Source of the DNA: an uncultured Pseudomonadota bacterium
GTDB lineage: Bacteria; Pseudomonadota; Alphaproteobacteria; RF32; CAG-239
Length of the DNA: 64,000 bases
Direction of reading: 5' to 3'
NCBI GenBank assembly: GCA_949295995.1
Contig: CASFNK010000015.1
Location: 6,473-70,472 of the forward strand
The notes under the pieces were generated by a model that worked only from the letters and a program-made list of their open reading frames with translations, was not told where the DNA came from and made no database searches. Numbering within the stretch: position 1 is the first letter of the stretch; each line of letters begins with the position of its first letter. This document shows positions 3,012 to 57,453 of this stretch, piece by piece. Position numbers and translations under genes: made by a program.

Positions 3012-4832
3012 ATGAATATGAGAAACATTGCCATCATTGCCCACGTTGATCACGGCAAAACCACATTGGTCGATGGCCTTTTAAGACAAAGCGGAACCTT
3101 CCGCGACAATCAAAAAGTTGCCGAATGCGTTATGGATAGCAACGACCTCGAAAGAGAAAGAGGCATTACCATTTTATCCAAATGCACATCGGTAAATTGG
3201 CACGGCACCCATATTAATATTGTAGATACACCGGGACACGCGGACTTCGGCGGTGAAGTAGAACGCATTTTATCAATGGTTGACGGTGTTGTCTTATTGG
3301 TCGATTCTTCCGAAGGTCCTATGCCGCAAACCAAATTCGTTTTAGGGAAAGCTCTCAAACTAGGTCTCTGCCCGATTGTTGTCATCAATAAGGCCGACAA
3401 AGCCGACGCTCGTGTTGATGAAGTATTAGACGAGATTTTTGATTTATTCGTCAGCCTCAATGCCAATGACAAACAACTTGACTTCCCTGTTTTGTATGCT
3501 TCCGGACGTAATGGTTGGGCAGTTAAAGATATGGCCGACGAGAAGAAAGACTTAAGCCCTCTTTTCCAACTGATATTAGACTATGTTCCTGAACCGGCTT
3601 GCGATTTGAACGCACCTTTCTCAATGCTTGCCACCACTTTGGAAGCCAACAAATTCATAGGTCGTTTGCTCACCGGAAAAATCCAAACTGGAACCTTGCA
3701 CGTTAACGATACGGTTAAGGTTTTAGATGGCGAAAATAAAGAGTTAGAGCGTGTTCGTATCAGCAAGATTTTGGCCTATCGCGGCTTAGAGCGTGTTGCT
3801 TTGGAAGAAGCTCACGCCGGAGATATCGTCGCCGTTGCCGGTGTAGTTAAAGGCACTGTTGCCGATACCATCTGTGCCATGGAAGTTAACCAAGCCATCA
3901 AAGCGCAACCAATAGACCCACCGACCTTGGCCATGACTTTCTCAATCAACGATTCTCCTTTAGCCGGACGTGAAGGCGACAAAGTTACTTCTCGGATGAT
4001 TTGGGACAGACTATGCAAAGAAGCCGAAGGTAATATTGCGCTCAAAATTTCCCGTACCGATTCTTCAGATTCGTTTGAAGTTGCCGGTCGTGGTGAATTG
4101 CAATTAGGCGTCTTGATTGAGACTATGCGCCGTGAAGGCTTTGAGCTCTCAATTTCTCGTCCTCGCGTTTTGATGAAAAGAGACGAAAACGGACAACTTC
4201 TTGAACCTTTTGAAGAAGTGGTTATTGACGTTGATGAAGAATTTTCCGGCAATGTTGTTGAAAAACTTGGACAACGCAAAGCCGAACTTGTTGAGATGAT
4301 ACCGTCTCAAATAGGCAACAAAGTCAGACTTATTTTCAACGCCCCATCCAGAGGACTAATCGGTTACCACTCGGAATTTTTAACCGACACCCGCGGCACC
4401 GGTATTATGAACCGCATTTTTAAGGATTATGAACCCTACAAAGGCGAGATTGACAGCCGCCGCAACGGAGTTTTGATTTCTTCCGAAAACGGTACAGCCA
4501 TTGCTTATTCTTTGTGGAAATTACAAGACCGCGGTCCAATGTTTATTGATGCCAACGTTCCGGTTTATGTCGGAATGATTATTGGTGAACACACCAAATC
4601 CAATGACTTGGAAGTCAACCCGACCAAAGCCAAACAATTAACCAACATTCGTGCCGCTGGTAAGGATGAAGCAATTGACCTGATTCCGCCACGCAAGCTC
4701 TCACTTGAACAGGCTTTATCTTACATTCAAGAAGATGAGCTTTTGGAAGTTACGCCTAAAACTTTACGTTTGCGTAAAAGAATTTTGGACCCTATTGCCA
4801 GAAAGCGCGCCAAACCGGAAGTTATGGCATAA
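3012..4832 (+). CDS. typA: Translational GTPase TypA/BipA
   Basis: AHVDHGKTTL, DTPGHADFGGEVER and NKADK G-motifs; 606 aa; EF-G-like domain order. Confidence 0.92.
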   Translation: MNMRNIAIIAHVDHGKTTLVDGLLRQSGTFRDNQKVAECVMDSNDLERERGITILSKCTSVNWHGTHINIVDTPGHADFGGEVERILSMVDGVVLLVDSSEGPMPQTKFVLGKALKLGLCPIVVINKADKADARVDEVLDEIFDLFVSLNANDKQLDFPVLYASGRNGWAVKDMADEKKDLSPLFQLILDYVPEPACDLNAPFSMLATTLEANKFIGRLLTGKIQTGTLHVNDTVKVLDGENKELERVRISKILAYRGLERVALEEAHAGDIVAVAGVVKGTVADTICAMEVNQAIKAQPIDPPTLAMTFSINDSPLAGREGDKVTSRMIWDRLCKEAEGNIALKISRTDSSDSFEVAGRGELQLGVLIETMRREGFELSISRPRVLMKRDENGQLLEPFEEVVIDVDEEFSGNVVEKLGQRKAELVEMIPSQIGNKVRLIFNAPSRGLIGYHSEFLTDTRGTGIMNRIFKDYEPYKGEIDSRRNGVLISSENGTAIAYSLWKLQDRGPMFIDANVPVYVGMIIGEHTKSNDLEVNPTKAKQLTNIRAAGKDEAIDLIPPRKLSLEQALSYIQEDELLEVTPKTLRLRKRILDPIARKRAKPEVMA

Positions 4833-47592: not shown

Positions 47593-48663
47593 CTATAACT
47601 TCCAACCCAAGATAACCGTTTTTTCGCCTTTTGCCAAATGGAGTAAAGTCAAACCAAACAAGGCTATATGCGTTTTCTTTCCGACTTGACAGCGAAACCA
47701 CGATTGCCTTAAATTCTGCAAACTTTGTTTAATCTTATAGCAGGTAGCACAACGGCAATAGCTCAAAAAATCATCACTTTCCAAAAGTTTTCCCACCAAC
47801 TCATGATGATTGACCATCTCTTTAGAAACCCCTAAATGACACAACAAATCTTTCACTTGCTGATAATAGAGCTTATGGTTTGCGTTTTGCGCAAAACCGG
47901 CACTTAAAATCCGCACCGGCAAATCAATTTTTCCCAAGAAACCATTTTCCTGATAATATTCAAAAATTTTTTGAAAAATCAGCAAATTATCTTTTCCGCT
48001 TTTGAGTTTTTGGCGAGCAACGACCGAATTTTCATGCTGGCGATAAAACACGGTTCCGCCATCACTAACGGCAATTTTTCGTAAATGCGGTAATAAAGCA
48101 TAGTGAAAGAACTCATCTTCATACAAACAACCCTCAGGAAAAGAAAGCTCCAAATCTCGGATTGGTTTTATCTTAAAAAGCTTTCCCCAAGCCACAACCC
48201 ACATCTGATTAACAATTTCGTTTGTAATCTGAAAAGTTCCCTCCGAATGCCCCGAAATCATGCGGTCTTTTGCGGTTTTTTTCTTTCCCTCACAAATCAC
48301 GATATCATGCACGCAAACCACATCGGCATTAGTCCTTGTTTGTGTTTTCACCAGTTCTTCAATGCATATCTTATCAATTTTATCATCGGCATCCAAAAAG
48401 AACACCAAATCCCCTTTGGCCTTTTTTAAGCCTAAATTTTTGGCTGTGGCTTTTCCGCCTTCTTTTAAGGTAAAGACCTGAATATTTTTATATTTATGAG
48501 CATAATCGGATAAAATATCGGCACATTTTTCCGAAGCACCGAAATTCACACAAAGAACTTCTAAATTTTCGTAAGTTTGTTTAACAATCGATTCCAAACA
48601 ATTCTCTAAGAATTGTTCATCCTTATAAACCGGCACAATTACCGACACCAAAGAAGAAGCCAT
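47593..48663 (-). CDS. Family 2 glycosyltransferase
   Basis: VSVIVPVYKDEQFLENCLESI...DADD GT-A motifs. Confidence 0.75.
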   Translation of the reverse strand: MASSLVSVIVPVYKDEQFLENCLESIVKQTYENLEVLCVNFGASEKCADILSDYAHKYKNIQVFTLKEGGKATAKNLGLKKAKGDLVFFLDADDKIDKICIEELVKTQTRTNADVVCVHDIVICEGKKKTAKDRMISGHSEGTFQITNEIVNQMWVVAWGKLFKIKPIRDLELSFPEGCLYEDEFFHYALLPHLRKIAVSDGGTVFYRQHENSVVARQKLKSGKDNLLIFQKIFEYYQENGFLGKIDLPVRILSAGFAQNANHKLYYQQVKDLLCHLGVSKEMVNHHELVGKLLESDDFLSYCRCATCYKIKQSLQNLRQSWFRCQVGKKTHIALFGLTLLHLAKGEKTVILGWKL

Positions 48664-48704
48664 AGCACTCTCCTGTTTTTACCAAAACTCTAAATATTCA
48701 ATAC

Positions 48705-49724
48705 CTATTTTCTCTTTCTTTCCACTTGAAAACGCATACCCAAAAAATGAATAATCTTATATTTTTTGCAATAAGAATTGCGAATACTAAACAGACGCTC
48801 CGCAAGAGTTAAATCTTTAATATGAACTAATTTATTAATAACTTCCGCACCATATTTTTTCCGCAAATCATTCAAAAATTTCTTCCGCAAAGACATATAT
48901 TGCTTATTATTCTGCAAAGAAAACTTATTAATATATCCCTCAATTCCGCTGATAAATTTATTCATTACCAACTGTTTTGTTTCCAGAGATTGCTTTTGAA
49001 AAATATCCATTTTTTCCAAAGAATAAAAAGCCTCTATATCGCTGGCAATGCAATCGAGCTTAGCAGTTGCCGACCCTTGACGGTTGATTCGATAAACATA
49101 GAAATATTCATCCACATAAGAACAATGCGGTTTATTAAAATAGCACAACAAATTAAAAATAACATCTTCCGCCGTCTTAATTCCGACAGGAAATTCGATA
49201 TGATGTTTTTTAATAAAATCAGCACGATAAATCTTATTCCACACAACGGACAAGAAAGCATAAATCGAAGGATTTTTAGGATCTTTTTCCAAAGATTCTT
49301 GAATTTCATTTTTGAAAGTATCATTATCCCAAACAAATTTTTTATCTCCGTCGAGTAAATAACTTTCAAAAATCAAAATATCGGAATTATTTTTTTCAAT
49401 ATGAGCCAGAGCGTCTTGCAAAAAATTCGGTTCAACACAATCATCGCCGTCCAAAAAAGCAATATACTCGCCTTGAGCTTTTTTCAATCCCTGATTTCTG
49501 GCAACGGACACACCTTCATTTTTCTTATCAATCACGACAACGCGGCTATCTTTTGCTTGGTATTTTTTCAAAATCTCCAAAGAACCGTCTTTTGACCCGT
49601 CATTAATAAAAATTGCCTCAAAGTTATCAAAACTTTGGGCAAGCAAACTATCCAAACATTGGGGAAGATATTGTTCAACATTATAAACGGGTATGATGAC
49701 AGAAATTTTAGGCTGTTGTTTCAT
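48705..49724 (-). CDS. Family 2 glycosyltransferase
   Basis: ISVIIPVYNVEQYLPQCLDSLLAQ...DGDD. ATG at 49724 has GGAGAA 4 nt upstream. Confidence 0.8.
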   Translation of the reverse strand: MKQQPKISVIIPVYNVEQYLPQCLDSLLAQSFDNFEAIFINDGSKDGSLEILKKYQAKDSRVVVIDKKNEGVSVARNQGLKKAQGEYIAFLDGDDCVEPNFLQDALAHIEKNNSDILIFESYLLDGDKKFVWDNDTFKNEIQESLEKDPKNPSIYAFLSVVWNKIYRADFIKKHHIEFPVGIKTAEDVIFNLLCYFNKPHCSYVDEYFYVYRINRQGSATAKLDCIASDIEAFYSLEKMDIFQKQSLETKQLVMNKFISGIEGYINKFSLQNNKQYMSLRKKFLNDLRKKYGAEVINKLVHIKDLTLAERLFSIRNSYCKKYKIIHFLGMRFQVERKRK

Positions 49725-49800
49725 TTTCTTCTCCACAAATAAGAGCAACATTTATGATAATAGGATTATAAGGATACGAAACAAAAGTCAACTAAAGAAC

Positions 49801-50379
49801 CTATTTTCTGAGTAAATTTCCGATTTTATTGGAAAAAGCGGCAATACCGTCTTTCAAAACAACACCGATATTTTGCGTAACCAAACGAATATTCTCATCA
49901 AGGATTGCTTTGTCAGCCTTAGAAAAACCGGTCAAAACATGATTAACCACCGCCTCGTGAGGCAAACTACTGTCGGGATGACCAATTCCTAACCGAACCC
50001 GATTATAATTTGGGCTAATTTGCGCATCAATACTTTTAAGCCCGTTATGTCCACCGGCACCACCACCGATTTTGGCTTTAATTTGATTGATTTTCAAATC
50101 CATATCATCATGAATGACAATCACGTTTTGTGGTAAGATTTTATAGAAATGTGCAGCCTTAACCACTGAATTGCCGGACAGATTCATATAAGTCTGCGGC
50201 TTAAGCAAATAAACTTTTTCGCCCTCAATCACACCTTCACTAATCAGCCCGTCAAACTTAGCCTTATATGGCCCGAAATGATATTCTTCATGAATTTCAT
50301 CAGCCACCATAAACCCGACATTATGACGAGTATTTTGATATTCAGCTCCGGGATTGCCCAAACCAACAATTAAAAACAT
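49801..50379 (-). CDS. pth: Peptidyl-tRNA hydrolase
   Basis: MFLIVGLGNPG...H..G; 192 aa. Confidence 0.9.
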   Translation of the reverse strand: MFLIVGLGNPGAEYQNTRHNVGFMVADEIHEEYHFGPYKAKFDGLISEGVIEGEKVYLLKPQTYMNLSGNSVVKAAHFYKILPQNVIVIHDDMDLKINQIKAKIGGGAGGHNGLKSIDAQISPNYNRVRLGIGHPDSSLPHEAVVNHVLTGFSKADKAILDENIRLVTQNIGVVLKDGIAAFSNKIGNLLRK

Positions 50380-50503
50380 CTTTGACCTTTTCTTTCATTT
50401 TCACAGAACATAATCGTTAAAGTTCCGGAGAAAGAATTTAATAATACAGATTTTAAAACAACAAAAATTGATAAAGGCCTGCAATAACAGGCCTTTTGCA
50501 ATT

Positions 50504-50794
50504 TTATTTTCTAAGAAAATCGACATGTAACGGCTTATCGCTAACCGGATGGAATTGAACATCCTGGCAAACGACTTTGTGTTTTTTGCCATCAACATTG
50601 ATTTCGATATCGGCATCATAGAAACCGACCATATCCAAAGCTTTTTCCAATTGAACCGGATCCAAGCTAATCAACAGGGCTTCTTTGTTACCACCGTAAA
50701 TAACCGCAGGAACGCGACCTTCACGACGACATGCACGAGCTGCCCCCTTACCTGCTTTTTCACGCAATTGAGCGTCAAAAGTAATATCTGCCAT
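50504..50794 (-). CDS. rplY: 50S ribosomal protein L25 (short form)
   Basis: 96 aa L25 N-domain (REGRVPAVIYG). Confidence 0.85.
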   Translation of the reverse strand: MADITFDAQLREKAGKGAARACRREGRVPAVIYGGNKEALLISLDPVQLEKALDMVGFYDADIEINVDGKKHKVVCQDVQFHPVSDKPLHVDFLRK

Positions 50795-50905
50795 CTTTAT
50801 TATTCCTTATAAAAAAATTAAACTCTCGCAGACCTCCAGGGGTGTCCGACGAGTAGAACTCTTTTACACCTTTATTTTCAATATTTCAAGAGCTTTTTAA
50901 ACGCC

Positions 50906-50933
50906 AAAGAGGAGATGTTTCCACCTCCTCTTT
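50906..50933 (-). terminator. Hairpin after P6 (weak terminator)
   Basis: 9-bp stem AAAGAGGAG/CTCCTCTTT; downstream sequence is only partly U-rich. Confidence 0.35.
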
Positions 50934-50945
50934 AATAAATTTTTC

Positions 50946-51245
50946 TTAAGCTCTTAACAAATAGAGCTCATTGTCGGCAGTTGGTTCTTCTTCAATTACG
51001 GCTGGAATGGTAACTCCTTTGGTTACCTGCCCTTCACTAAGATTTACAAAAACCCCATAGCAAAGAACCCCGTTTTTGTTAAAGACGGCATGCCAGCCAT
51101 CTTCTTCAGAGAAGAACTCCAACTTGGCTTCAACCTCTACAGGCTGTTTAGTAGTTTTTTTCTCTCGCGGTGCATGACCAACGTTTTTCCAATACACCAA
51201 TACAAATAAAAAAGCCAAGACAGCAATTAAAATAATTAGTTCCAT
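50946..51245 (-). CDS. Small membrane-anchored protein P6 (99 aa) of the tandem array
   Basis: N-terminal TM helix, basic stretch, then a small soluble domain. Starts 4 nt after the P5 stop. Confidence 0.55.
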   Translation of the reverse strand: MELIILIAVLAFLFVLVYWKNVGHAPREKKTTKQPVEVEAKLEFFSEEDGWHAVFNKNGVLCYGVFVNLSEGQVTKGVTIPAVIEEEPTADNELYLLRA

Positions 51246-51249
51246 AATA

Positions 51250-51783
51250 TTAGTTTTTTAAAAATTTAAAGAAATTTGCTAAATTCAGTTTTTTGCTTTT
51301 TTGCTTTTTTGAAGCAAAATAATGAACAGTTTCACCCCAATCCATTTTTTCCAAGAGTTCAACCTCCACTCTTGTAGAAAGGACAGAATATTTCAACACC
51401 CGACACCAATAGGTTTGCTTTTCTTCAGGCTTCTCATCATTCAAAGTCTGAACAATCACCACCGGAATAATCGTCAAATGCGTCAGGATTCTCCCCCTTA
51501 ATTCATCATCGATTTTATCGACAATGCAAGGATACATTGCACCGGTTTTAGCCCGATGCCATAAACGAAAATCGACCCAAAATTTATAACACAATGCTGC
51601 AATAATAGCTACCCAACCAATAAAGTTTTTGGAGCTAAAAAGCAACACCCAAACCAAAGTCAAACCAAACTGCACTCGAATGTCTTGCATTCTTGGCAAA
51701 GATTTAGCCAACCAAAACTGATTAGCTAACCAGACAATGACACCAGCCACCGCCCAATAAATTAAGATAACGATTGGATTCAT
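51250..51783 (-). CDS. Small membrane protein P5 (177 aa) of the tandem array
   Basis: N-terminal TM helices plus a C-terminal soluble region. Preceded by a consensus TTGACA-N16-TATAAT promoter. Confidence 0.6.
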   Translation of the reverse strand: MNPIVILIYWAVAGVIVWLANQFWLAKSLPRMQDIRVQFGLTLVWVLLFSSKNFIGWVAIIAALCYKFWVDFRLWHRAKTGAMYPCIVDKIDDELRGRILTHLTIIPVVIVQTLNDEKPEEKQTYWCRVLKYSVLSTRVEVELLEKMDWGETVHYFASKKQKSKKLNLANFFKFLKN

Positions 51784-51835
51784 ATCTCTAAATTTTTATA
51801 ATTAATAATATTCCTAATACTTATAAATTAGCGCC

Positions 51836-51863
51836 ATTATAGACAAAAATTATAAAATGTCAA
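51836..51863 (-). promoter_or_regulatory. Consensus sigma70 promoter for P5-P6 (TTGACA-N16-TATAAT)
   Basis: -35 at 51858-51863 and -10 at 51836-51841 on the minus strand, immediately after the P4 terminator. Confidence 0.5.
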
Positions 51864-51869
51864 ACAAAC

Positions 51870-51903
51870 AAAAAGGCTTTTATCTTACATTAGATAAAAG
51901 CCT
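51870..51903 (-). terminator. Terminator after P4
   Basis: 11-bp stem AGGCTTTTATC/GATAAAAGCCT followed by UUUUUGUUUG on the minus strand. Confidence 0.65.
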
Positions 51904-51912
51904 CTATAAAAA

Positions 51913-52440
51913 TTATGAATAAGAAGTAACCTTTATGTCAACCTCTTCACCGTAAAACCATTCCCAAACATCATAATAACACGATTTCACAACGACAGGA
52001 AAAACATTTCCCTTTTGGTACTTTTCAAAATTTCTGACCTCCAGCTCTGCACTTAAAGGATATTTGCAAAAATCAGTATCAAACTCACCGAAAATTCTAT
52101 CAGGTTTATAACAAATATAATTCACCTTAAAGTAATAAACACCTGACATCAGCTTGTTTGTAAACTTCTTTCTAAAAATCCGAATAGAAAGCAACGCCAA
52201 AATCTGACTTACAATTACCAACCCCAACCAGAAGAACAATTCAAAACGGTTAAAAGGATTTGTTGATACAAAATATCCAACAAAAAAGATAGCATCCACC
52301 GTTAGCTTAAATAAAAGATAATAAGCCCATCCTCCCTGAGAACCGATACTCATAATCTTTTTCTTGAATAGAGCAAACAAAAAATTACCCACATTAAGAG
52401 CAATCAGGATTCCGAAAATCCAATAAAAGACACAATCCAT
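51913..52440 (-). CDS. Small membrane protein P4 (175 aa) of the tandem array
   Basis: Three predicted TM helices plus a C-terminal soluble region. Has its own TTGACT promoter and a 5'UTR homologous to those of P2 and P5. Confidence 0.6.
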   Translation of the reverse strand: MDCVFYWIFGILIALNVGNFLFALFKKKIMSIGSQGGWAYYLLFKLTVDAIFFVGYFVSTNPFNRFELFFWLGLVIVSQILALLSIRIFRKKFTNKLMSGVYYFKVNYICYKPDRIFGEFDTDFCKYPLSAELEVRNFEKYQKGNVFPVVVKSCYYDVWEWFYGEEVDIKVTSYS

Positions 52441-52485
52441 AACTCGAAAAAATTTAAGTGATACAATAATAAATTACTGTTTTCA

Positions 52486-52514
52486 GCTATACTTAAATTT
52501 CTTTTTTGAGTCAA
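52486..52514 (-). promoter_or_regulatory. Candidate promoter for P4 (TTGACT-N17-TATAGC)
   Basis: -35 at 52509-52514 and -10 at 52486-52491 on the minus strand, immediately after the P3 terminator. Confidence 0.4.
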
Positions 52515-52547
52515 ACAAAAAAGGGGTAGCCTTGCCCCCCTTTTTTA
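52509..52547 (-). terminator. Terminator after P3
   Basis: AAAAAAGGGG-10 nt loop-CCCCTTTTTT immediately after the P3 stop codon. Confidence 0.55.
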
Positions 52548-52898
52548 TAATTTATCTATATTTTTGCAAGTTTTGATACCTCTAAGAAAAAGTACTCCAA
52601 ACAATATCGGTGCAAGCACCAATCCGGCAGACAGCAAGTAGTACCCCAAATTTACATAAACGTGCAAAGATAATTCGCACCACCACATAAAGAGCACAAC
52701 CGCCGCCACAACAAACCCAAAGAACAAAAATCCTTGAATTTCGATAATCCTTTTTTCAAGTTGAACTTTGATAATAGTGCGGTTTACCGTTCTTTTCAGT
52801 GTTTCCGCAGCCTCCTTATCACATTTTTTCAACTCTAAAAAAGCATAGCGGTCTAATACCAAACAAAACACAACAAAAAAGATTAAAAGCCATAACAT
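52545..52898 (-). CDS. Small 3-TM membrane protein P3 (117 aa), paralogue of P2
   Basis: C-terminal half aligns with P2 (QG...W...VLVLA.ILF.V...R.....K...KL). 13 nt downstream of P2. Confidence 0.6.
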   Translation of the reverse strand: MLWLLIFFVVFCLVLDRYAFLELKKCDKEAAETLKRTVNRTIIKVQLEKRIIEIQGFLFFGFVVAAVVLFMWWCELSLHVYVNLGYYLLSAGLVLAPILFGVLFLRGIKTCKNIDKL

Positions 52899-52911
52899 AA
52901 CTCATAATTTG

Positions 52912-53283
52912 CTATAATTTTTCTACTTTTTGAGAAATGCAAACCGCTCTTATTGCCACAACAGCAAACAAAATTGTCGCCAAAACAAGGACTCCGCCAA
53001 AAAGATACATCCAAATATCCAATGTCAAATAGGTTTTATCTTCCCAAAAATAGCAAAAGACCAAACCGACACAAGCTAAAGCAAGAATAACTCCTTGCAC
53101 ACGAACACCTTTAACCGCGGAAATATGTTTTTCCATATTCCACCTATCTTCAAAAGAAAGAGAGTGTTGGCTTAACTTTTCTTCTGTGAGTTGTTTTTCA
53201 GACTTGTTAAGCGAAACCAGATACCAAACACCTATTGCGACTAACAATATCGCAATAAATAAAAAAATAATACTTTCTAACAT
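52912..53283 (-). CDS. Small 3-TM membrane protein P2 (124 aa), paralogue of P3
   Basis: ATG at 53283 has the same start context as P3 and P4 (gagttATG). Track start at 53328 is a TTG that would lie upstream of the predicted promoter -10. Confidence 0.6.
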   Translation of the reverse strand: MLESIIFLFIAILLVAIGVWYLVSLNKSEKQLTEEKLSQHSLSFEDRWNMEKHISAVKGVRVQGVILALACVGLVFCYFWEDKTYLTLDIWMYLFGGVLVLATILFAVVAIRAVCISQKVEKL

Positions 53284-53326
53284 AACTCGAAAATTTTTAA
53301 GATTAATAATAAAATTAAGTATTTTC

Positions 53327-53354
53327 AAAATATCATATAGCTACATTTTGTCAA
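53327..53354 (-). promoter_or_regulatory. Candidate promoter for P2-P3 (TTGACA-N16-TATTTT)
   Basis: -35 at 53349-53354 and -10 at 53327-53332 on the minus strand, immediately after the P1 terminator. Confidence 0.4.
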
Positions 53355-53361
53355 CATCTTC

Positions 53362-53401
53362 AAAAAAAGAACTCGCTTTCGTTTATCAAGAAAGCAAGTT
53401 C
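53362..53401 (-). terminator. Terminator after P1
   Basis: 12-bp stem (one G-U) GAACTTGCTTTC/GAAAGCGAGTTC followed by a U7 run on the minus strand. Confidence 0.7.
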
Positions 53402-53407
53402 TTTTAA

Positions 53408-53698
53408 TTAATTTTCGACAAACTCTTCCAATTTAAAGAGTTTATTCTTTTCGTTATACCCAACAACAACAGCTTTAACTCTTTCAGAGTGAGGTTGTTT
53501 TTCAAAATATCCCAAATGGTCTCCGTAAAGAAAAAATTTACAAAGCCAAAGACCATTTTCTTCTTTTTTTAATCGAGCAACAACCACACCATTTTTATAA
53601 TACTGCTGTCTTCTTTTTTTTCTGGCCACCCTTATTTCATTATAGACATACAAACTATAAAGAACAAGGAATGCCACAATACATAAACCAGTTTTCAT
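53408..53698 (-). CDS. Small membrane-anchored protein P1 (96 aa) of the tandem array
   Basis: ATG at 53698 (MKTGLCIVAFLVLYSLYVY...). The longer GTG-start form to 53749 would overlap the predicted promoter. Hairpin terminator follows. Confidence 0.5.
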   Translation of the reverse strand: MKTGLCIVAFLVLYSLYVYNEIRVARKKRRQQYYKNGVVVARLKKEENGLWLCKFFLYGDHLGYFEKQPHSERVKAVVVGYNEKNKLFKLEEFVEN

Positions 53699-53729
53699 AA
53701 TGATAAATAAATAAGATTTTATATAAAAA

Positions 53730-53759
53730 TATATAAATAAGTTTTTCACTAACTGTCAA
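53730..53759 (-). promoter_or_regulatory. Candidate promoter for P1 (TTGACA-N18-TATATA)
   Basis: -35 at 53754-53759 and -10 at 53730-53735 on the minus strand, immediately after the pnp terminator. Confidence 0.3.
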
Positions 53760-53767
53760 CATTCAAA

Positions 53768-53802
53768 CAAAAAAAGACCCATTTCTTTCCCAAGAAATGA
53801 GT
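53768..53802 (-). terminator. Terminator after pnp
   Basis: 12-bp stem (one G-U) GACTCATTTCTT/AAGAAATGGGTC followed by a U7 run on the minus strand. Confidence 0.75.
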
Positions 53803-53830
53803 CCTTTCTTTTCAAAAGCGGATTAAATAA

Positions 53831-55951
53831 TTATTTTTCCAAATCTTCACCGGTTTCTTGATTAACTCTTTTAGCTGAGAGTTTAATCTTACCGCGATTA
53901 TCTTGACCGATGCATTTAACCCAGATTGTATCACCTTCTTTATAGAAGTCGGAAACGGAAGCGATTCTCTCATTTTTGACTTCAGAGATATGAACCAACC
54001 CTTCGGTTGTTCCGAGGAAGCGAACAAAAGCCCCGAAATCCATAATTTTGGTAATAACACCTTTATAGATTTTGCCTTCTTCGGGTTCTGCAACGATTCC
54101 CATAATCCAGTCAAGAGCCGCATCACCATCTTCTTTTTTCATGGTAGCGATACGAATAACACCATCATCGGAAATATCGATTTTAGAATTGGTTTTTTCG
54201 GTAATTTCACGAATAACCTTACCGCCGGAACCAATAACTTCGCGAATTTTATCGACCGGAATTTTAATGGCGATGATACGCGGAGCTTTGTCAGAAACAT
54301 GCGGACGAGGAGCAGAAATAGCCTTAGCCATTTCACCCAAGATATGGATACGACCTTCATGAGCTTGAGCCAAAGCCTTTTCCATAATTTCTTTGGTAAT
54401 GGAGGTGATTTTAATATCCATCTGCAAAGCGGTAACACCATCTTTTGTACCGGCGACCTTAAAGTCCATATCGCCCAAATGGTCTTCATCACCCAAAATA
54501 TCGGTCAAAATAGCAACACGACCGTCATCTTCTTTAATCAAGCCCATGGCAATACCAGCCACTGGTTTTGTCATTGGCACACCGGCAGACATCAAAGACA
54601 TGGTTGAGCCGCAAACGGTTGCCATAGATGAAGAACCGTTTGATTCCATAATTTCTGAAACCACGCGAATAGTGTAAGGGAAACTGTCTTGATTTTTCGG
54701 CAACATCGGATGAATAGCACGCCAAGCCAATTTACCATGACCGATTTCACGACGTCCCGGGCTACCGATTCTACCGCATTCACCAACTGAGAACGGCGGG
54801 AAGTTATAGTTCAGCATAAAGTCTTCTTTATACTCAGCCATCAGACCATCAACGACTTGAGCATCTTCACCTGTACCCAAAGTGGTAACCACCAAAGCCT
54901 GAGTTTCACCACGGGTAAAGATAGCAGAACCATGAGCCATAGGCAAAACATCAACTTCGCATTGAATTGGGCGAACGGTTTTGGTATCACGACCATCAAT
55001 ACGATGACCGGTAGTCAAAACTTTTTCTCTCATAACATGGTGCATCAATTTTTCGATAGCATCTTGCGCATAGCGTTGCTCGAATTCATTTTCCGGATCC
55101 AAAGTAGCCTTGAATTTTTCAGAGGCTTGGGCAATGAGTTCGCCACGTTTCAATTTATCGGTTTCCTTAAAGGCTTCTTCAAAATCAGCACTAAATCCGT
55201 CAGCCAATTTTTTGTAGAGTTCATCAAATTCAGGCGGAAATACCGGAGTTTCCCAAGCTTCTTTTCCGGCTTCGGCTTTTAATTCTTCAATAAGTTTAAT
55301 AACCGGTTGGAAGTTTTCAAAACCAAACATAACGGCACCAAGCATTGTTTCTTCAGACAATTCTTGAGCTTCGGATTCAACCATCAAAACACCTTCTTTG
55401 GTACCGGCAACCACCAATTCCAAATCCGATTCTTTAATTTGTTCAATCGTTGGGTTCAAAATATATTGACCATCTTTATAGCCGATTTTAGCCGAAGCAA
55501 TAGGCCCCAAGAACGGAATACCGGAAATGCTCAAAGCAGCCGAAGCGGCAATCATAGCCGGAATATCGGAATCAGTTACTTGGTCATGAGACAATACGGT
55601 ACAAATAACTTGAACTTCGTTTTTGAAAGCATCCGGAAACAGAGGACGAATAGGTCTGTCAATCAAACGAGAGAGCAAAACTTCACGTTCACTTGGTTTG
55701 CCTTCACGTTTCATAAATCCGCCGGGAACTTTACCGGTAGCATAGTATTTTTCTTGATAATTAACTGTCAAAGGAAAGAAATCCTGATCAGCCTTTACCT
55801 CTTTAGCTGCGCAAACAGTTGCAATAACTTCGGTTTCACCATAGGTAACAACGACAGCCCCTTGCGCTTGACGAGCCAGCTTACCCGTTTCCAATACCAA
55901 TTTGCGTCCGCCCCATTCCATTTCTTTGCGAACCACATTAAAATTGATCAT
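53831..55951 (-). CDS. pnp: Polyribonucleotide nucleotidyltransferase (PNPase)
   Basis: ATG at 55951 ([18 protein letters not shown]) has AAAGGAAAG RBS. RNase PH, KH and S1 domains present. Confidence 0.95.
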
Positions 55952-56254
55952 ATATCTTTCCTTTCTTTCATATTCTCTTACAAACATCAATCAATCCGAG
56001 CCTTCCCGAACTGACCACCTGCTCAAGAGCAGGATTTAAAACGAATGCGGAACACCCTGCCCCGCATTCCAAAAACTTTGTTCAGCCAACAACAACCCCA
56101 AAGGTTGATTTAGGCTGACTTCTCCACATATCAAAAAATATTTTAATGGAGCAAAGAGAGCTCTTTTTAACGGCAACACAAATTATATCATACACCAAAG
56201 TACATAATTGCGAGACGAAATAAAATTGCCCTAATTGCCCCATTAAATAAATTC
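55952..56254 (-). promoter_or_regulatory. rpsO-pnp intergenic leader (terminator/attenuator hairpins upstream of pnp)
   Basis: 303-nt gap between rpsO and pnp with an 8-bp GC hairpin (56043-56069) and a 5-bp hairpin (56018-56033). The E. coli rpsO-pnp intergenic region carries the rpsO terminator and an RNase III-processed pnp leader. Confidence 0.35.
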
Positions 56255-56524
56255 CTACTTACGGAGGTCTAATCTCTTAATCAAATCCTGATATCTGCTT
56301 TCGCTCTTAGATTTCAGGTGATCTAACAAGTGGCGACGACGGCTAACCATCTTCATCAAGCCCAAGCGAGAGTGTAAATCTTTTTGATGAGTATTGAAGT
56401 GCTCAATCAAAGCATTGATTCTGTAGGTCCAAATAGCGATTTGAACTTCCGGAGAACCGGTATCACCTGGGGTTAAACCATATTCTTTAATTAATTCTTG
56501 TTTTTTTTCATTAGTAATCGACAT
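56255..56524 (-). CDS. rpsO: 30S ribosomal protein S15
   Basis: ATG at 56524 gives [15 protein letters not shown]...; 89 aa. Confidence 0.92.
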
Positions 56525-56544
56525 CAATTTATCCTTTATACATA

Positions 56545-57453
56545 TTAAAGATTAAACACTCGAACCGGAGAAATTCTTTTTTCCTCGATTCGCACAATCG
56601 CAATCAAATTATCCTCGAAATAAGCCGCAGCCTCACGACCAATCAAATTTTGCACTTGATAAGCCTTCGGCGACACGCCTTGTCCAAGTTTAAGTTTGTT
56701 TGCATCAACTTCCGAAACAGCAATCACCGCGATGTCGCGCAGAGATGTTTCTAACGGAAGCAAAAATTCTTTTAGGGGGATACTATGCACCAAATTTTTT
56801 ATATTTTCCAGTAAAATTTTCGACTCAAGCCCGAAATTACCGCATTTTGTGCGTCTTAACTCCTGCAAATAGCCGAGAGTCCCCAATTTTTGAGCCAAAT
56901 CATGCCCGAGTGTGCGCACATAAGTCCCTTTAGAGCACTCCACCCGAAAACGCGCTTGGTGATTCTCTAATTCTTCTAAAAGTTCCAGAGCATAAATTTC
57001 AACTTCTCGCTCCGGTATGGCAACCTCTTCACCTTTTCTGGCCAAATTATAAGCCCGTTCCCCATTGATTTTAATGGCAGAATAAACCGGCGGAACCTGT
57101 TTTATTTTGCCGATAAATTGCGGCAAGACGCTTAAAATTTCTTCTCTTGTTGGAATTTTTGACGATTCTCCGATAATTTCGCCTTCAGAATCATCGGTAT
57201 TGGTTGCTTTGCCCCATTGAATGATAAATTCATATTCTTTTTTTCCATCCGTAACATAAGGCAAGAGCTTTGTCGCCTCACCGAATGCAATCGGCAACAC
57301 GCCGGTAGCAAAAGGGTCAAGCGTGCCGGCATGCCCGTTCTTTTTGGCATTAAGCCATTTACGAGTCAAATTAACCACCTGCGTTGAGCCGATATCCCGA
57401 GGTTTATCGACAATCAGCCAACCGTTTATATTTTCGCCTTTTTTATGTTTCAT
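56545..57453 (-). CDS. truB: tRNA pseudouridine(55) synthase TruB
   Basis: [14 protein letters not shown] catalytic motif. Confidence 0.9.

What the first reader, a model, noticed from the sequence alone, without database searches (positions are those of the whole stretch)
50946..53802. Cassette-like array of six small membrane-anchored proteins, each unit built as terminator, TTGACA promoter, then gene
Six small proteins (96-177 aa) lie between pnp and rplY, all on the minus strand. Each starts with one hydrophobic helix followed by a K/R-rich stretch and a variable C-terminal part. The sequence shows four transcription units: P1, P2-P3, P4 and P5-P6. Each unit begins within about 15 nt of the previous gene's strong hairpin terminator, with a -35 box reading TTGACA, TTGACA, TTGACT and TTGACA respectively. 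The P5 promoter is a perfect TTGACA-N16-TATAAT. The 5'UTRs of P2, P4 and P5 are homologous over about 35 nt, for example ttattattaatcttaaaaattttcgagttATG, tttattattgtatcacttaaattttttcgagttATG and attattaattataaaaatttagagatATG. Repeated promoter-UTR-gene modules with a conserved N-terminal anchor and diversified C-termini resemble a diversifying family such as immunity-like or phage-exclusion membrane proteins. Nothing characterised that I know of matches it, so this is my best candidate for an undescribed system.
Basis: seen in the sequence. Interest (0 to 1): 0.8.

Follow-up and report, generated by a model that had tools for sequence, protein, structure and literature searches.

The report
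Membrane-anchored OB-fold protein gene array
Between two housekeeping genes, an uncultured gut alphaproteobacterium carries six real, separately transcribed genes for small membrane proteins from three unannotated families, one of which I could model as a membrane helix plus an OB-fold barrel; the array gains and loses genes between close strains, and its function is unknown.

Summary
Six minus-strand genes (96, 123, 117, 175, 177 and 99 aa) lie between pnp and rplY. They form four units, each with a near-consensus sigma-70 promoter directly after the previous hairpin terminator. The leader similarity is real homology, not AT-richness.

The proteins are not one family with a shared anchor and diversified tails. 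There are three families: A (P1, P6), B (P2, P3) and C (P4, with P5 marginal). Family A is one transmembrane helix plus a confidently predicted five-stranded OB-fold, inferred to be cytoplasmic. Its closest structures are S1 domains and the membrane-anchored OB domain of NfeD proteins (YuaF, YbbJ). No member matches Pfam NfeD or S1, and no SPFH partner gene lies nearby.

The families are confined to a small clade of gut alphaproteobacteria. An exhaustive search of 1.84 billion proteins found 27 hits, and members always sit just upstream of rplY. Close strains carry 6, 5 or 3 genes. In a sister strain a 111-nt terminator-promoter-leader repeat flanks the P2-P3 cassette, which points to gain and loss by recombination. 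dN/dS is 0.14-0.23, so selection is purifying.

Function is unknown. A defence or immunity role has no positive support. I rate it a new variant of a known kind, of moderate interest.

The parts
53762..53816 (-). Intrinsic terminator after pnp (hairpin plus U-run)
   Evidence: RNAfold gives -23.3 kcal/mol and a UUUUUUU tail. Sequence read.
53730..53759 (-). P1 promoter: TTGACA (53759-53754), about 18 nt spacer, TATATA
   Evidence: Sequence; TTGACA position. The -10 box matches consensus at 4 of 6 positions. The site was read by eye and is not mapped.
53408..53698 (-). P1, 96 aa, family A: one TM helix plus a five-stranded OB-fold
53365..53405 (-). Intrinsic terminator after P1
   Evidence: -19.9 kcal/mol with a U-run.
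53327..53354 (-). P2-P3 promoter: TTGACA-N16-TATTTT
   Evidence: Promoter scan, 10 of 12 matches.
53281..53312 (-). P2 leader: a 32-nt copy of the repeated leader module, with ATTATTAAT at 53302-53310 and TTTTCGAGTTATG
   Evidence: Repeat family D1, 78% identical to 52438-52469. The 13-mer occurs exactly twice in the window. Motif position.
52912..53283 (-). P2, 123 aa, family B: 3-TM membrane protein
   Evidence: Hydropathy. BLASTP against P3 gives 23% identity over 118 aa, E 2e-9. The family has 23 members of 115-123 aa, none annotated.
52545..52898 (-). P3, 117 aa, family B paralogue of P2, co-transcribed with it (13-nt gap, no terminator)
52519..52544 (-). Intrinsic terminator after P3; the start of the repeated module
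   Evidence: -12.1 kcal/mol with a U-run. The same hairpin follows pnp directly in L001, L092 and L093.
52486..52514 (-). P4 promoter: TTGACT-N17-TATAGC
   Evidence: Sequence. The -10 box is weak and lacks the final T. The element is conserved in L001 and L093.
52438..52469 (-). P4 leader: reference copy of the repeated leader module, ending in TTTTCGAGTTATG
51913..52440 (-). P4, 175 aa, family C: 3 TM helices plus a C-terminal five-strand beta domain
   Evidence: The AlphaFold2 model is poor (pLDDT 58) but shows helices 2-25, 36-58 and 65-98 followed by 5 strands. hhalign to the 3TM-plus-domain proteins of other species gives 96.8% probability.
51872..51905 (-). Intrinsic terminator after P4
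   Evidence: 14-bp stem; -17.5 kcal/mol.
51836..51863 (-). P5-P6 promoter: perfect TTGACA-N16-TATAAT
   Evidence: 12 of 12 matches.
51801..51809 (-). ATTATTAAT leader motif upstream of P5
   Evidence: In related arrays the motif is about 15-fold enriched on the coding strand (0.45 per kb against 0.029 per kb).
51250..51783 (-). P5, 177 aa: 3 TM segments, a beta-rich domain and a basic C-terminal tail; only marginally related to family C
   Evidence: hhalign to the wider family C set gives 38% probability, E 3e-4, and shows no direct relation to P4. dN/dS is 0.14. The third TM segment is my reading of the sequence.
50946..51245 (-). P6, 99 aa, family A: one TM helix plus an acidic OB-like domain; starts 4 nt after P5 ends
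   Evidence: hhalign to the P1 group gives 91.4% and to other family A groups 96.6%. Domain net charge is -7.
50905..50934 (-). Intrinsic terminator after P6
   Evidence: -19.9 kcal/mol.

Best explanation
The pnp-rplY interval holds a lineage-specific, fast-evolving set of small inner-membrane proteins from three families.
- Family A (P1, P6): one TM helix followed by a compact five-stranded OB-fold, placed in the cytoplasm by the positive-inside rule.
- Family B (P2, P3): three TM helices only.
- Family C (P4, with P5 marginal): three TM helices plus a C-terminal five-strand domain.

Shown:
- The genes are real and under purifying selection.
- Each of the four units has its own promoter, terminator and unstructured AU-rich leader without a Shine-Dalgarno sequence.
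- The fold and architecture of P1 resemble short NfeD proteins.
- The families co-occur, and A is usually co-transcribed with C.
- In some species a B-like membrane module is fused to an A-type OB domain.
- Strain haplotypes differ by whole cassettes, and a cassette is flanked by a 111-nt repeat of the terminator-promoter-leader module.

Inferred:
- The proteins assemble into hetero-oligomeric membrane complexes. Their cytoplasmic OB domains would bind a protein or peptide ligand at the membrane surface, acting as an NfeD-like tethered adaptor or scaffold rather than an enzyme or an RNA binder.
- The array expands and contracts by homologous recombination between the repeated modules.

The biological process served is not known.
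For: Reality of the genes:
- dN/dS is 0.14-0.23 for P4-P6, against 0.02-0.05 for pnp and pth.
- Eight or more independent contigs carry the same six called genes.
- The P1 model is confident, with pLDDT 88.9.

Fold:

Topology:
- In 22 of 26 family A proteins the 15 residues after the TM helix carry a net positive charge, while the N-terminus is at most +1.
- The NfeD OB domain is also cytoplasmic (PMC11222466).

A protein ligand rather than RNA: most family A OB domains outside the P1 subgroup are acidic, with net charge down to -11.

Partnership:
- A and C genes are adjacent, with overlaps or gaps of 18 nt or less, in L007, L016, L017, L018, L020 and L049. P5-P6 shows the same pairing here.
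- The 3TM-A fusion proteins match family B over their TM region (74.6%, E 2.7e-5) and P1 over their OB domain (99.5%).

Cassette dynamics:
- 6-, 5- and 3-gene haplotypes occur in strains that are 92-94% identical in nucleotide sequence.
- A 111-nt direct repeat flanks P2-P3 in L093, and a 32-nt remnant survives in the window.
- In L001 the pnp terminator is the window's P3 terminator.

Regulatory modules.
Against: - No experimental or functional evidence bears on these proteins.
- No sequence link to NfeD exists: no member reaches E <= 1 against Pfam NfeD, and hhalign to YbbJ gives under 4% probability.
- No SPFH gene was found in the window or in the 80 related loci fetched at that stage, each up to 16 kb.
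- Only P1 has a confident model. The C-terminal domains of P4 and P5 are inferred from secondary structure alone (pLDDT 58), and the fold search on that model was uninformative.
- Hetero-oligomerisation rests on gene adjacency and one moderately supported fusion (74.6%).
- Topology rests on the positive-inside rule alone.
- Low GC, strain-level presence and absence, and rapid divergence fit a conflict-related role equally well.
Confidence: 0.45

Rival explanations
1. Conflict system. The array is a set of orphan immunity or phage-exclusion (abortive-infection) membrane proteins. Each is expressed constitutively from its own promoter, and cassettes are shuffled between strains, as in the gut Bacteroidales rAID-1 arrays.
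For: - Gene content varies between close strains: 6, 5 or 3 genes.
- Intergenic modules are repeated.
- GC is low, 0.31-0.35 against 0.38-0.44 in the flanks.
- Amino-acid divergence is 10-20 times faster than in pnp.
- Each unit has its own strong promoter and terminator.
- rAID-1 arrays share the skewed GC and the repetitive intergenic sequences (bioRxiv 10.1101/471110).
- From my own knowledge, not tested here: P2 and P3 match the size and 3-TM layout of pore-former immunity proteins.
Against: - No PADLOC or PHROGs hit.
- No homologue in IMG/VR viral contigs for the P1 family or for P4.
- No recombinase, toxin or mobile-element gene adjacent.
- The families sit at the same chromosomal position across many species, which suggests vertical descent.
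- dN/dS is well below 1.
- A cytoplasmic OB domain is not what one expects of immunity against envelope-delivered toxins.
Confidence: 0.25
2. RNA-linked function. The proteins are membrane-tethered S1-like RNA-binding domains that work with their neighbours in RNA decay and translation (PNPase, S15, L25, Pth, YchF), for example by holding RNA or PNPase at the membrane.
For: - The viral fold hits are eIF2-alpha and S1 domains.
- The families always lie immediately upstream of rplY and usually downstream of pnp.
- The P1 subgroup's OB domains are neutral to basic, up to +7.
Against: - No sequence relation to Pfam S1: one member reaches only E 0.15.
- No relation to the neighbouring PNPase S1 domain: hhalign gives 2.8% or less.
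- Most family A domains are strongly acidic.
- The loop between strands 3 and 4 is short, as in NfeD, and lacks the helix typical of S1 (the S1 comparison is from my own knowledge).
- The upstream neighbour varies (pnp, infB, a methyltransferase-like gene).
- Strain-level loss of P1-P3 is odd for a housekeeping partner.
Confidence: 0.12
3. Divergent true NfeD proteins. They partner an SPFH (stomatin or flotillin) protein encoded elsewhere in the genome and act in membrane-microdomain scaffolding.
For: - The architecture is the same: N-terminal TM segments plus a C-terminal cytoplasmic OB domain.
- The NfeD description is taken from PMC11222466 and PMC4208085.
Against: - No match to Pfam NfeD in any of the 29 members scanned.
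- No SPFH gene within the 64 kb window or the 80 related loci, whereas NfeD genes are described as operon partners of flotillin genes (PMC11222466).
- Multiple paralogues in a variable array are atypical for NfeD.
Confidence: 0.1
4. Non-functional ORFs in an AT-rich spacer: an annotation artefact.
For: No database annotation exists, and the leaders are AT-rich and lack a Shine-Dalgarno sequence.
Against: - Selection is purifying.
- The genes are conserved across more than 20 species.
- The predicted fold is confident.
- Dedicated promoters and terminators are present.
Confidence: 0.02

Closest known systems
Short (truncated) NfeD proteins: YuaF (B. subtilis), YbbJ (E. coli), PH1510 C-terminal domain
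   Same: - N-terminal TM helices are followed by a compact five-stranded OB-fold on the cytoplasmic face.
- The size range of 150-180 aa matches P4 and P5.
   Different: - No sequence similarity.
- No adjacent SPFH gene.
- Minimal single-TM forms of 90-110 aa exist.
- Several paralogues lie in a strain-variable array, each unit with its own promoter.
- The families are restricted to one small clade, whereas NfeD is reported across almost all bacterial genomes (PMC11222466).
S1 RNA-binding domain (Pfam PF00575)
   Different: - No profile match.
- The proteins are membrane-anchored.
- The domains are mostly acidic.
- The helical insert between strands 3 and 4 is absent (the S1 comparison is from my own knowledge).
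rAID-1 orphan-immunity arrays of gut Bacteroidales (bioRxiv 10.1101/471110)
   Same: A gut bacterium, an array of small fast-evolving genes, skewed GC and repeated intergenic sequences.
   Different: - No XerD-type recombinase.
- No homology to known immunity genes.
- Only 1-6 genes.
- A fixed chromosomal position upstream of rplY across species.
- The repeats here are terminator-promoter-leader modules.
Integron gene cassettes
   Same: Modular units of one or two genes are gained and lost at one locus.
   Different: No integrase gene lies next to the array. Each cassette carries its own promoter and terminator. I did not scan for attC sites. Turnover is inferred to occur by homologous recombination between 111-nt repeats.

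Membership tests
NfeD (short form) | N-terminal transmembrane segments followed by a C-terminal five-stranded OB-fold | tested here: met
NfeD (short form) | OB domain on the cytoplasmic face of the membrane | tested here: inconclusive
   The positive-inside rule favours a cytoplasmic C-terminus in 22 of 26 family A proteins. I could run no topology predictor or experiment.
NfeD (short form) | Sequence match to the Pfam NfeD model (PF01957) | tested here: not met
   None of the six proteins, and none of the 29 family members scanned, matches at E <= 1. hhalign to YbbJ gives under 4% probability.
NfeD (short form) | Encoded in an operon with an SPFH (flotillin or stomatin) gene (PMC11222466) | tested here: not met
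   tblastn with E. coli QmcA finds nothing at E <= 1 in the window or in the 80 related loci. The flanking genes are pnp and rplY.
S1 RNA-binding domain | Match to Pfam S1 (PF00575) | tested here: not met
   One of 14 members reaches E 0.15 and none is significant. hhalign to the genome's own PNPase S1 domain gives 2.8% or less.
S1 RNA-binding domain | Basic or aromatic nucleic-acid-binding surface | tested here: inconclusive
   Domain net charge runs from +7 to -11. The P1 subgroup is neutral to basic, and most other members are acidic. I did not analyse the surface.
rAID-1 / orphan immunity array | Adjacent XerD-family tyrosine recombinase | tested here: not met
   The neighbours are TruB, S15, PNPase, L25, Pth and family-2 glycosyltransferases (Pfam annotation of the contig).
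rAID-1 / orphan immunity array | Repetitive intergenic sequences and skewed GC | tested here: met
   A 111-nt repeat in L093 and a 32-nt remnant here. GC is 0.31-0.35 against 0.38-0.44 in the flanks.
rAID-1 / orphan immunity array | Homology of the array genes to known immunity genes | tested here: not met
   No Pfam or NCBIfam family matches. No dedicated immunity-protein library was available.
Known anti-phage defence or phage superinfection-exclusion proteins | Match to PADLOC or PHROGs models, or presence on phage genomes | tested here: not met
   PADLOC gives no hits. PHROGs gives only noise at E > 0.01. IMG/VR scans for the P1 family and for P4 give no confirmed hit.

The most novel reading that the evidence does not exclude
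The array is an undescribed conflict module of uncultured gut Alphaproteobacteria. Membrane-tethered OB-fold sensors would be paired with multi-TM partners and carried in self-promoted cassettes. Those cassettes would be swapped between strains by recombination at a shared terminator-promoter-leader module. This would amount to a recombinase-free chromosomal cassette array for phage exclusion or toxin immunity.
Probability: 0.2. Interest if true: 0.75.

Novelty: new variant of a known kind. Interest (0 to 1): 0.45.

Why it matters
The finding defines three unannotated protein families. Family A has about 25 clusters at 50% identity among 1.84 billion representative proteins. All three are confined to a poorly studied clade of uncultured gut alphaproteobacteria.

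It shows that the membrane-anchored OB-fold layout, so far tied to NfeD and SPFH systems, also occurs without an SPFH neighbour, in minimal single-helix forms and in paired or fused combinations.

It also gives a clean natural example of genes gained and lost as promoter-carrying cassettes between direct repeats of a regulatory module. That is useful for understanding strain-level variation in gut metagenomes.

If the proteins prove to be defence or immunity factors, this would be a new class. If they are NfeD-like scaffolds, they broaden that family's scope.

Tried and rejected
- Pfam, NCBIfam, PADLOC and PHROGs scans of the six proteins found nothing significant. Pfam scans of 29 family members found no NfeD match and no significant S1 match.
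- A profile search of PDB sequences with the family A domain gave only noise.
- The afdb50 fold library was unavailable.
- The BFVD viral fold search gave only generic S1 and eIF2-alpha hits above E 1e-3.
- Viral-contig scans with the broad family alignments failed for lack of conserved stretches. Scans with the P1-subfamily alignment and with P4 found no relatives.
- I tested whether family A arose by duplication of the adjacent PNPase S1 domain. hhalign gives no support, at 2.8% or less.
- I tested whether P4 and P5 are direct paralogues. This is not supported directly (0.6%). P5 links only weakly, at 38%, to the wider family C.
- I tested whether the leaders form a structured RNA. They do not: z-scores run from -0.43 to +1.7, and Rfam finds nothing in 50300-56700.
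- I rejected the spurious-ORF reading on dN/dS, conservation and the confident fold.

Full report
**Observation**

The region 50946-53802 holds six minus-strand ORFs between pnp (53831-55951) and rplY (50504-50794).
- With ATG starts the products are 96, 123, 117, 175, 177 and 99 aa.
- Independent gene callers made the same six calls on eight or more metagenomic contigs from different samples.
- P1 must start at the ATG at 53698, because the longer GTG ORF begins inside its own promoter. Homologues also begin MKTGLCIV.
- Hairpins followed by U-runs lie after pnp, P1, P3, P4 and P6, at -12 to -23 kcal/mol. None lies at the P2-P3 or P5-P6 junctions.
- Each terminator's T-run is followed within about 5-20 nt by TTGACA, TTGACA, TTGACT and TTGACA. 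The P5 promoter is a perfect TTGACA-N16-TATAAT.
- TTGACA is five-fold over-represented on the coding strand of the region. Three copies fall in about 500 nt of intergenic DNA, where 0.16 is expected.
- The -10 boxes of P1, P2 and P4 are weaker than consensus. The raw count of promoter-like sites does not exceed shuffles. What is non-random is their placement and quality.
- The leader similarity is real. TTTTCGAGTTATG occurs exactly twice in the 64 kb window, at the P2 and P4 start codons, inside a 32-nt repeat.

The four-unit reading is therefore supported by sequence, but it has not been mapped experimentally.

**Source organism**

The flanking proteins cluster with those of MAGs labelled 'Azospirillum sp. 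47_25', 'Candidatus Scatocola faecipullorum' and 'uncultured Alphaproteobacteria' from human, chicken and ruminant guts.

**What the proteins are**

None of the six matches any Pfam, NCBIfam, PADLOC or PHROGs model. They do not form one family.
- By BLASTP only P2 and P3 are related (23% identity, E 2e-9).
- I built profiles from homologues in 80 related genomic loci and compared them with hhalign.
- P1 and P6 belong to one family, A (91-97% probability).
- P4 belongs to a family, C, of proteins with three TM helices plus a C-terminal domain (96.8%).
- P5 is only marginally linked to C (38%).
- Families A, B (P2/P3) and C show no mutual similarity.
The anchors are simply generic TM helices.

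**Fold**

P4 modelled poorly (pLDDT 58), but it shows three TM helices followed by five strands. That is the layout of short NfeD proteins. The fold search on this model was uninformative.

In 22 of 26 family A proteins the segment after the TM helix is net positive and the N-terminus is not. By the positive-inside rule the OB domain is cytoplasmic, as in NfeD (PMC11222466).

Most family A OB domains outside the P1 subgroup are acidic, with net charge down to -11. That argues against a general RNA-binding role.

**Membership tests**

None of the 29 members scanned reaches E <= 1 against Pfam NfeD, and only one reaches E 0.15 against S1. hhalign to E. coli YbbJ and to the genome's own PNPase S1 domain is negative. 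NfeD genes are described as the operon partners of flotillin (SPFH) genes (PMC11222466, PMC4208085). tblastn with QmcA finds no SPFH gene in the window or in the 80 related loci fetched at that stage, each up to 16 kb. These proteins therefore resemble NfeD in fold and layout but fail two defining membership features.

**Distribution and context**

An exhaustive HMMER search with the family A domain over 1.84 billion representative proteins gave only 27 hits. Word-indexed searches of 5.8 billion proteins gave 27 hits for family A, 11 for family C and 23 for family B. None is annotated and none has a Pfam domain.

Every member whose context I could read lies directly upstream of rplY.
- Usually it sits in the pnp-rplY interval, which ranges from 0.64 to 5.2 kb.
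- In L049 it follows an infB-like gene, and in L004 and L012 a methyltransferase-like gene.
- Content varies from one gene to six.

Two patterns recur.
- A family A gene is followed immediately by a family C gene, overlapping by up to 13 nt or separated by at most 18 nt. This is seen in L007, L016, L017, L018, L020 and L049. In the window the order is reversed, as P5-P6.
- In some species (L044, L047, L094, L095 and proteins P0108, P0109, P0113) a single protein combines a family-B-like three-TM region (74.6%, E 2.7e-5) with a P1-type OB domain (99.5%).

Adjacency and fusion together suggest that the families act as one membrane complex. This is an inference.

**Evolutionary dynamics**

Against strain L001 (pnp 99% identical in amino acids, dS 0.24), P4, P5 and P6 are 90%, 97% and 86% identical, with dN/dS of 0.16, 0.14 and 0.23. 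pnp and pth give 0.02-0.05. Against Ca. Scatocola the three proteins fall to 38-61% identity, while PNPase stays at 96%. The genes are therefore constrained but evolve 10-20 times faster than their neighbours. They are not under net positive selection.

Close strains carry different haplotypes:
- six genes in the window and in L084-L091;
- five genes, lacking P1, in L092 and L093;
- three genes, P4-P6, in L001.

In L093 the P2-P3 cassette is flanked by a 111-nt direct repeat comprising terminator, TTGAC(A/T) promoter and leader. The repeat is 77% identical without gaps and 85% by BLAST. In L001 one copy of that module joins pnp directly to P4. In the window, the exact 13-mer and the 32-nt repeat are the remnant of the upstream copy.

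This explains the 'homologous UTRs'. It also suggests, by inference, that cassettes come and go by homologous recombination between module copies.

**Leaders**

Across species the leaders share an ATTATTAAY...TTAAA motif about 10-25 nt before the ATG. The motif is 15-fold enriched in the arrays. The leaders lack a Shine-Dalgarno sequence: 0 of 6 array genes have one, against 24 of 49 long ORFs in the window. They are unstructured and match no Rfam family.

**Function**

Nothing here establishes function.
- I found no phage link: no hits in IMG/VR, PADLOC or PHROGs.
- No recombinase or toxin gene lies adjacent.
- Low GC, strain-level turnover and repeated intergenic modules recall the gut rAID-1 orphan-immunity arrays (bioRxiv 10.1101/471110). 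The fixed position across species, the cytoplasmic OB domains and the purifying selection fit that model poorly.

My best reading, at confidence about 0.45, is a lineage-specific set of membrane-tethered OB-fold adaptors that works like short NfeD proteins. The cytoplasmic barrel would bind a protein partner at the membrane, in complexes of A with C or B subunits. The rivals are a conflict system (0.25), a membrane-tethered S1-like RNA function linked to pnp and rplY (0.12), and divergent true NfeD proteins with a distant SPFH partner (0.10).

**Verdict**

I class it as a new variant of a known kind: membrane-anchored OB-fold proteins, here without an SPFH partner and arranged as a recombining array of self-promoted cassettes. 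Interest is moderate. The families and the cassette mechanism are new, but there is no functional handle yet and the organism is uncultured.

Noticed in passing
window 50826-50860 (- strand), core at 50833-50844: A conserved hairpin lies 35-45 nt upstream of the rplY start codon. Its 12-nt core, CACCCCTGGAGG, is invariant in all 24 related species aligned. The flanking stem covaries: 8 of 11 predicted pairs show compensatory changes. The core is unique in the window and has no Rfam match at E <= 1. It may be an undescribed L25 (rplY) autoregulatory leader.
   Followed up: partly
window 47593-49751 (- strand): Two family-2 glycosyltransferase genes sit between pth and ychF (Pfam annotation). 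In relatives pth is followed directly by ychF (L083), or by a hexapeptide-transferase gene plus a 138-aa ORF (L094 and L095). This is a second strain-variable spot in the same operon neighbourhood.
   Followed up: no
L092 about 4290-4440: An insertion of about 140 nt lies between the pnp terminator and the P2 promoter. It contains two near-identical hairpins (ccccgagtttactcgggg and cccccagtttactggggg), like a small MITE or REP element, and is absent from the sister strain L093. No copy occurs in the window.
   Followed up: partly
L017 3164-6943: A 1259-aa repeat-rich protein lies between pnp and the A-C gene pair. It has a PEPE linker and a C-terminal region that resembles an autotransporter beta-domain. 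The pnp-rplY interval therefore also accepts large cargo.
   Followed up: no
L022 6893-7871 and L040 5412-5891: In these species the interval holds soluble proteins of 158-177 aa with no TM segment, either instead of the membrane families or alongside them. The L022 pair looks beta-rich, and I did not check whether it carries related domains.
   Followed up: no
window 51912-51941 (- strand): A second near-consensus promoter-like site, TTGACA-N18-CATAAT (11 of 12 matches), lies inside the 3' end of P4, upstream of the P4 terminator. Its significance is unknown.
   Followed up: no
window 50504-50794 compared with loci L057-L080: L25 is the short 96-aa form in this gut clade. In more distant alphaproteobacteria the match covers only the first 95 residues or so, and pth starts 330 nt or more further downstream. 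This suggests the longer CTC-type L25 there. I did not verify it.
   Followed up: no
L004 2425-2934 and L012 4352-4855: These family A variants have one TM helix followed by two tandem OB-like domains (167-169 aa). They lie upstream of rplY but are not next to pnp.
   Followed up: no
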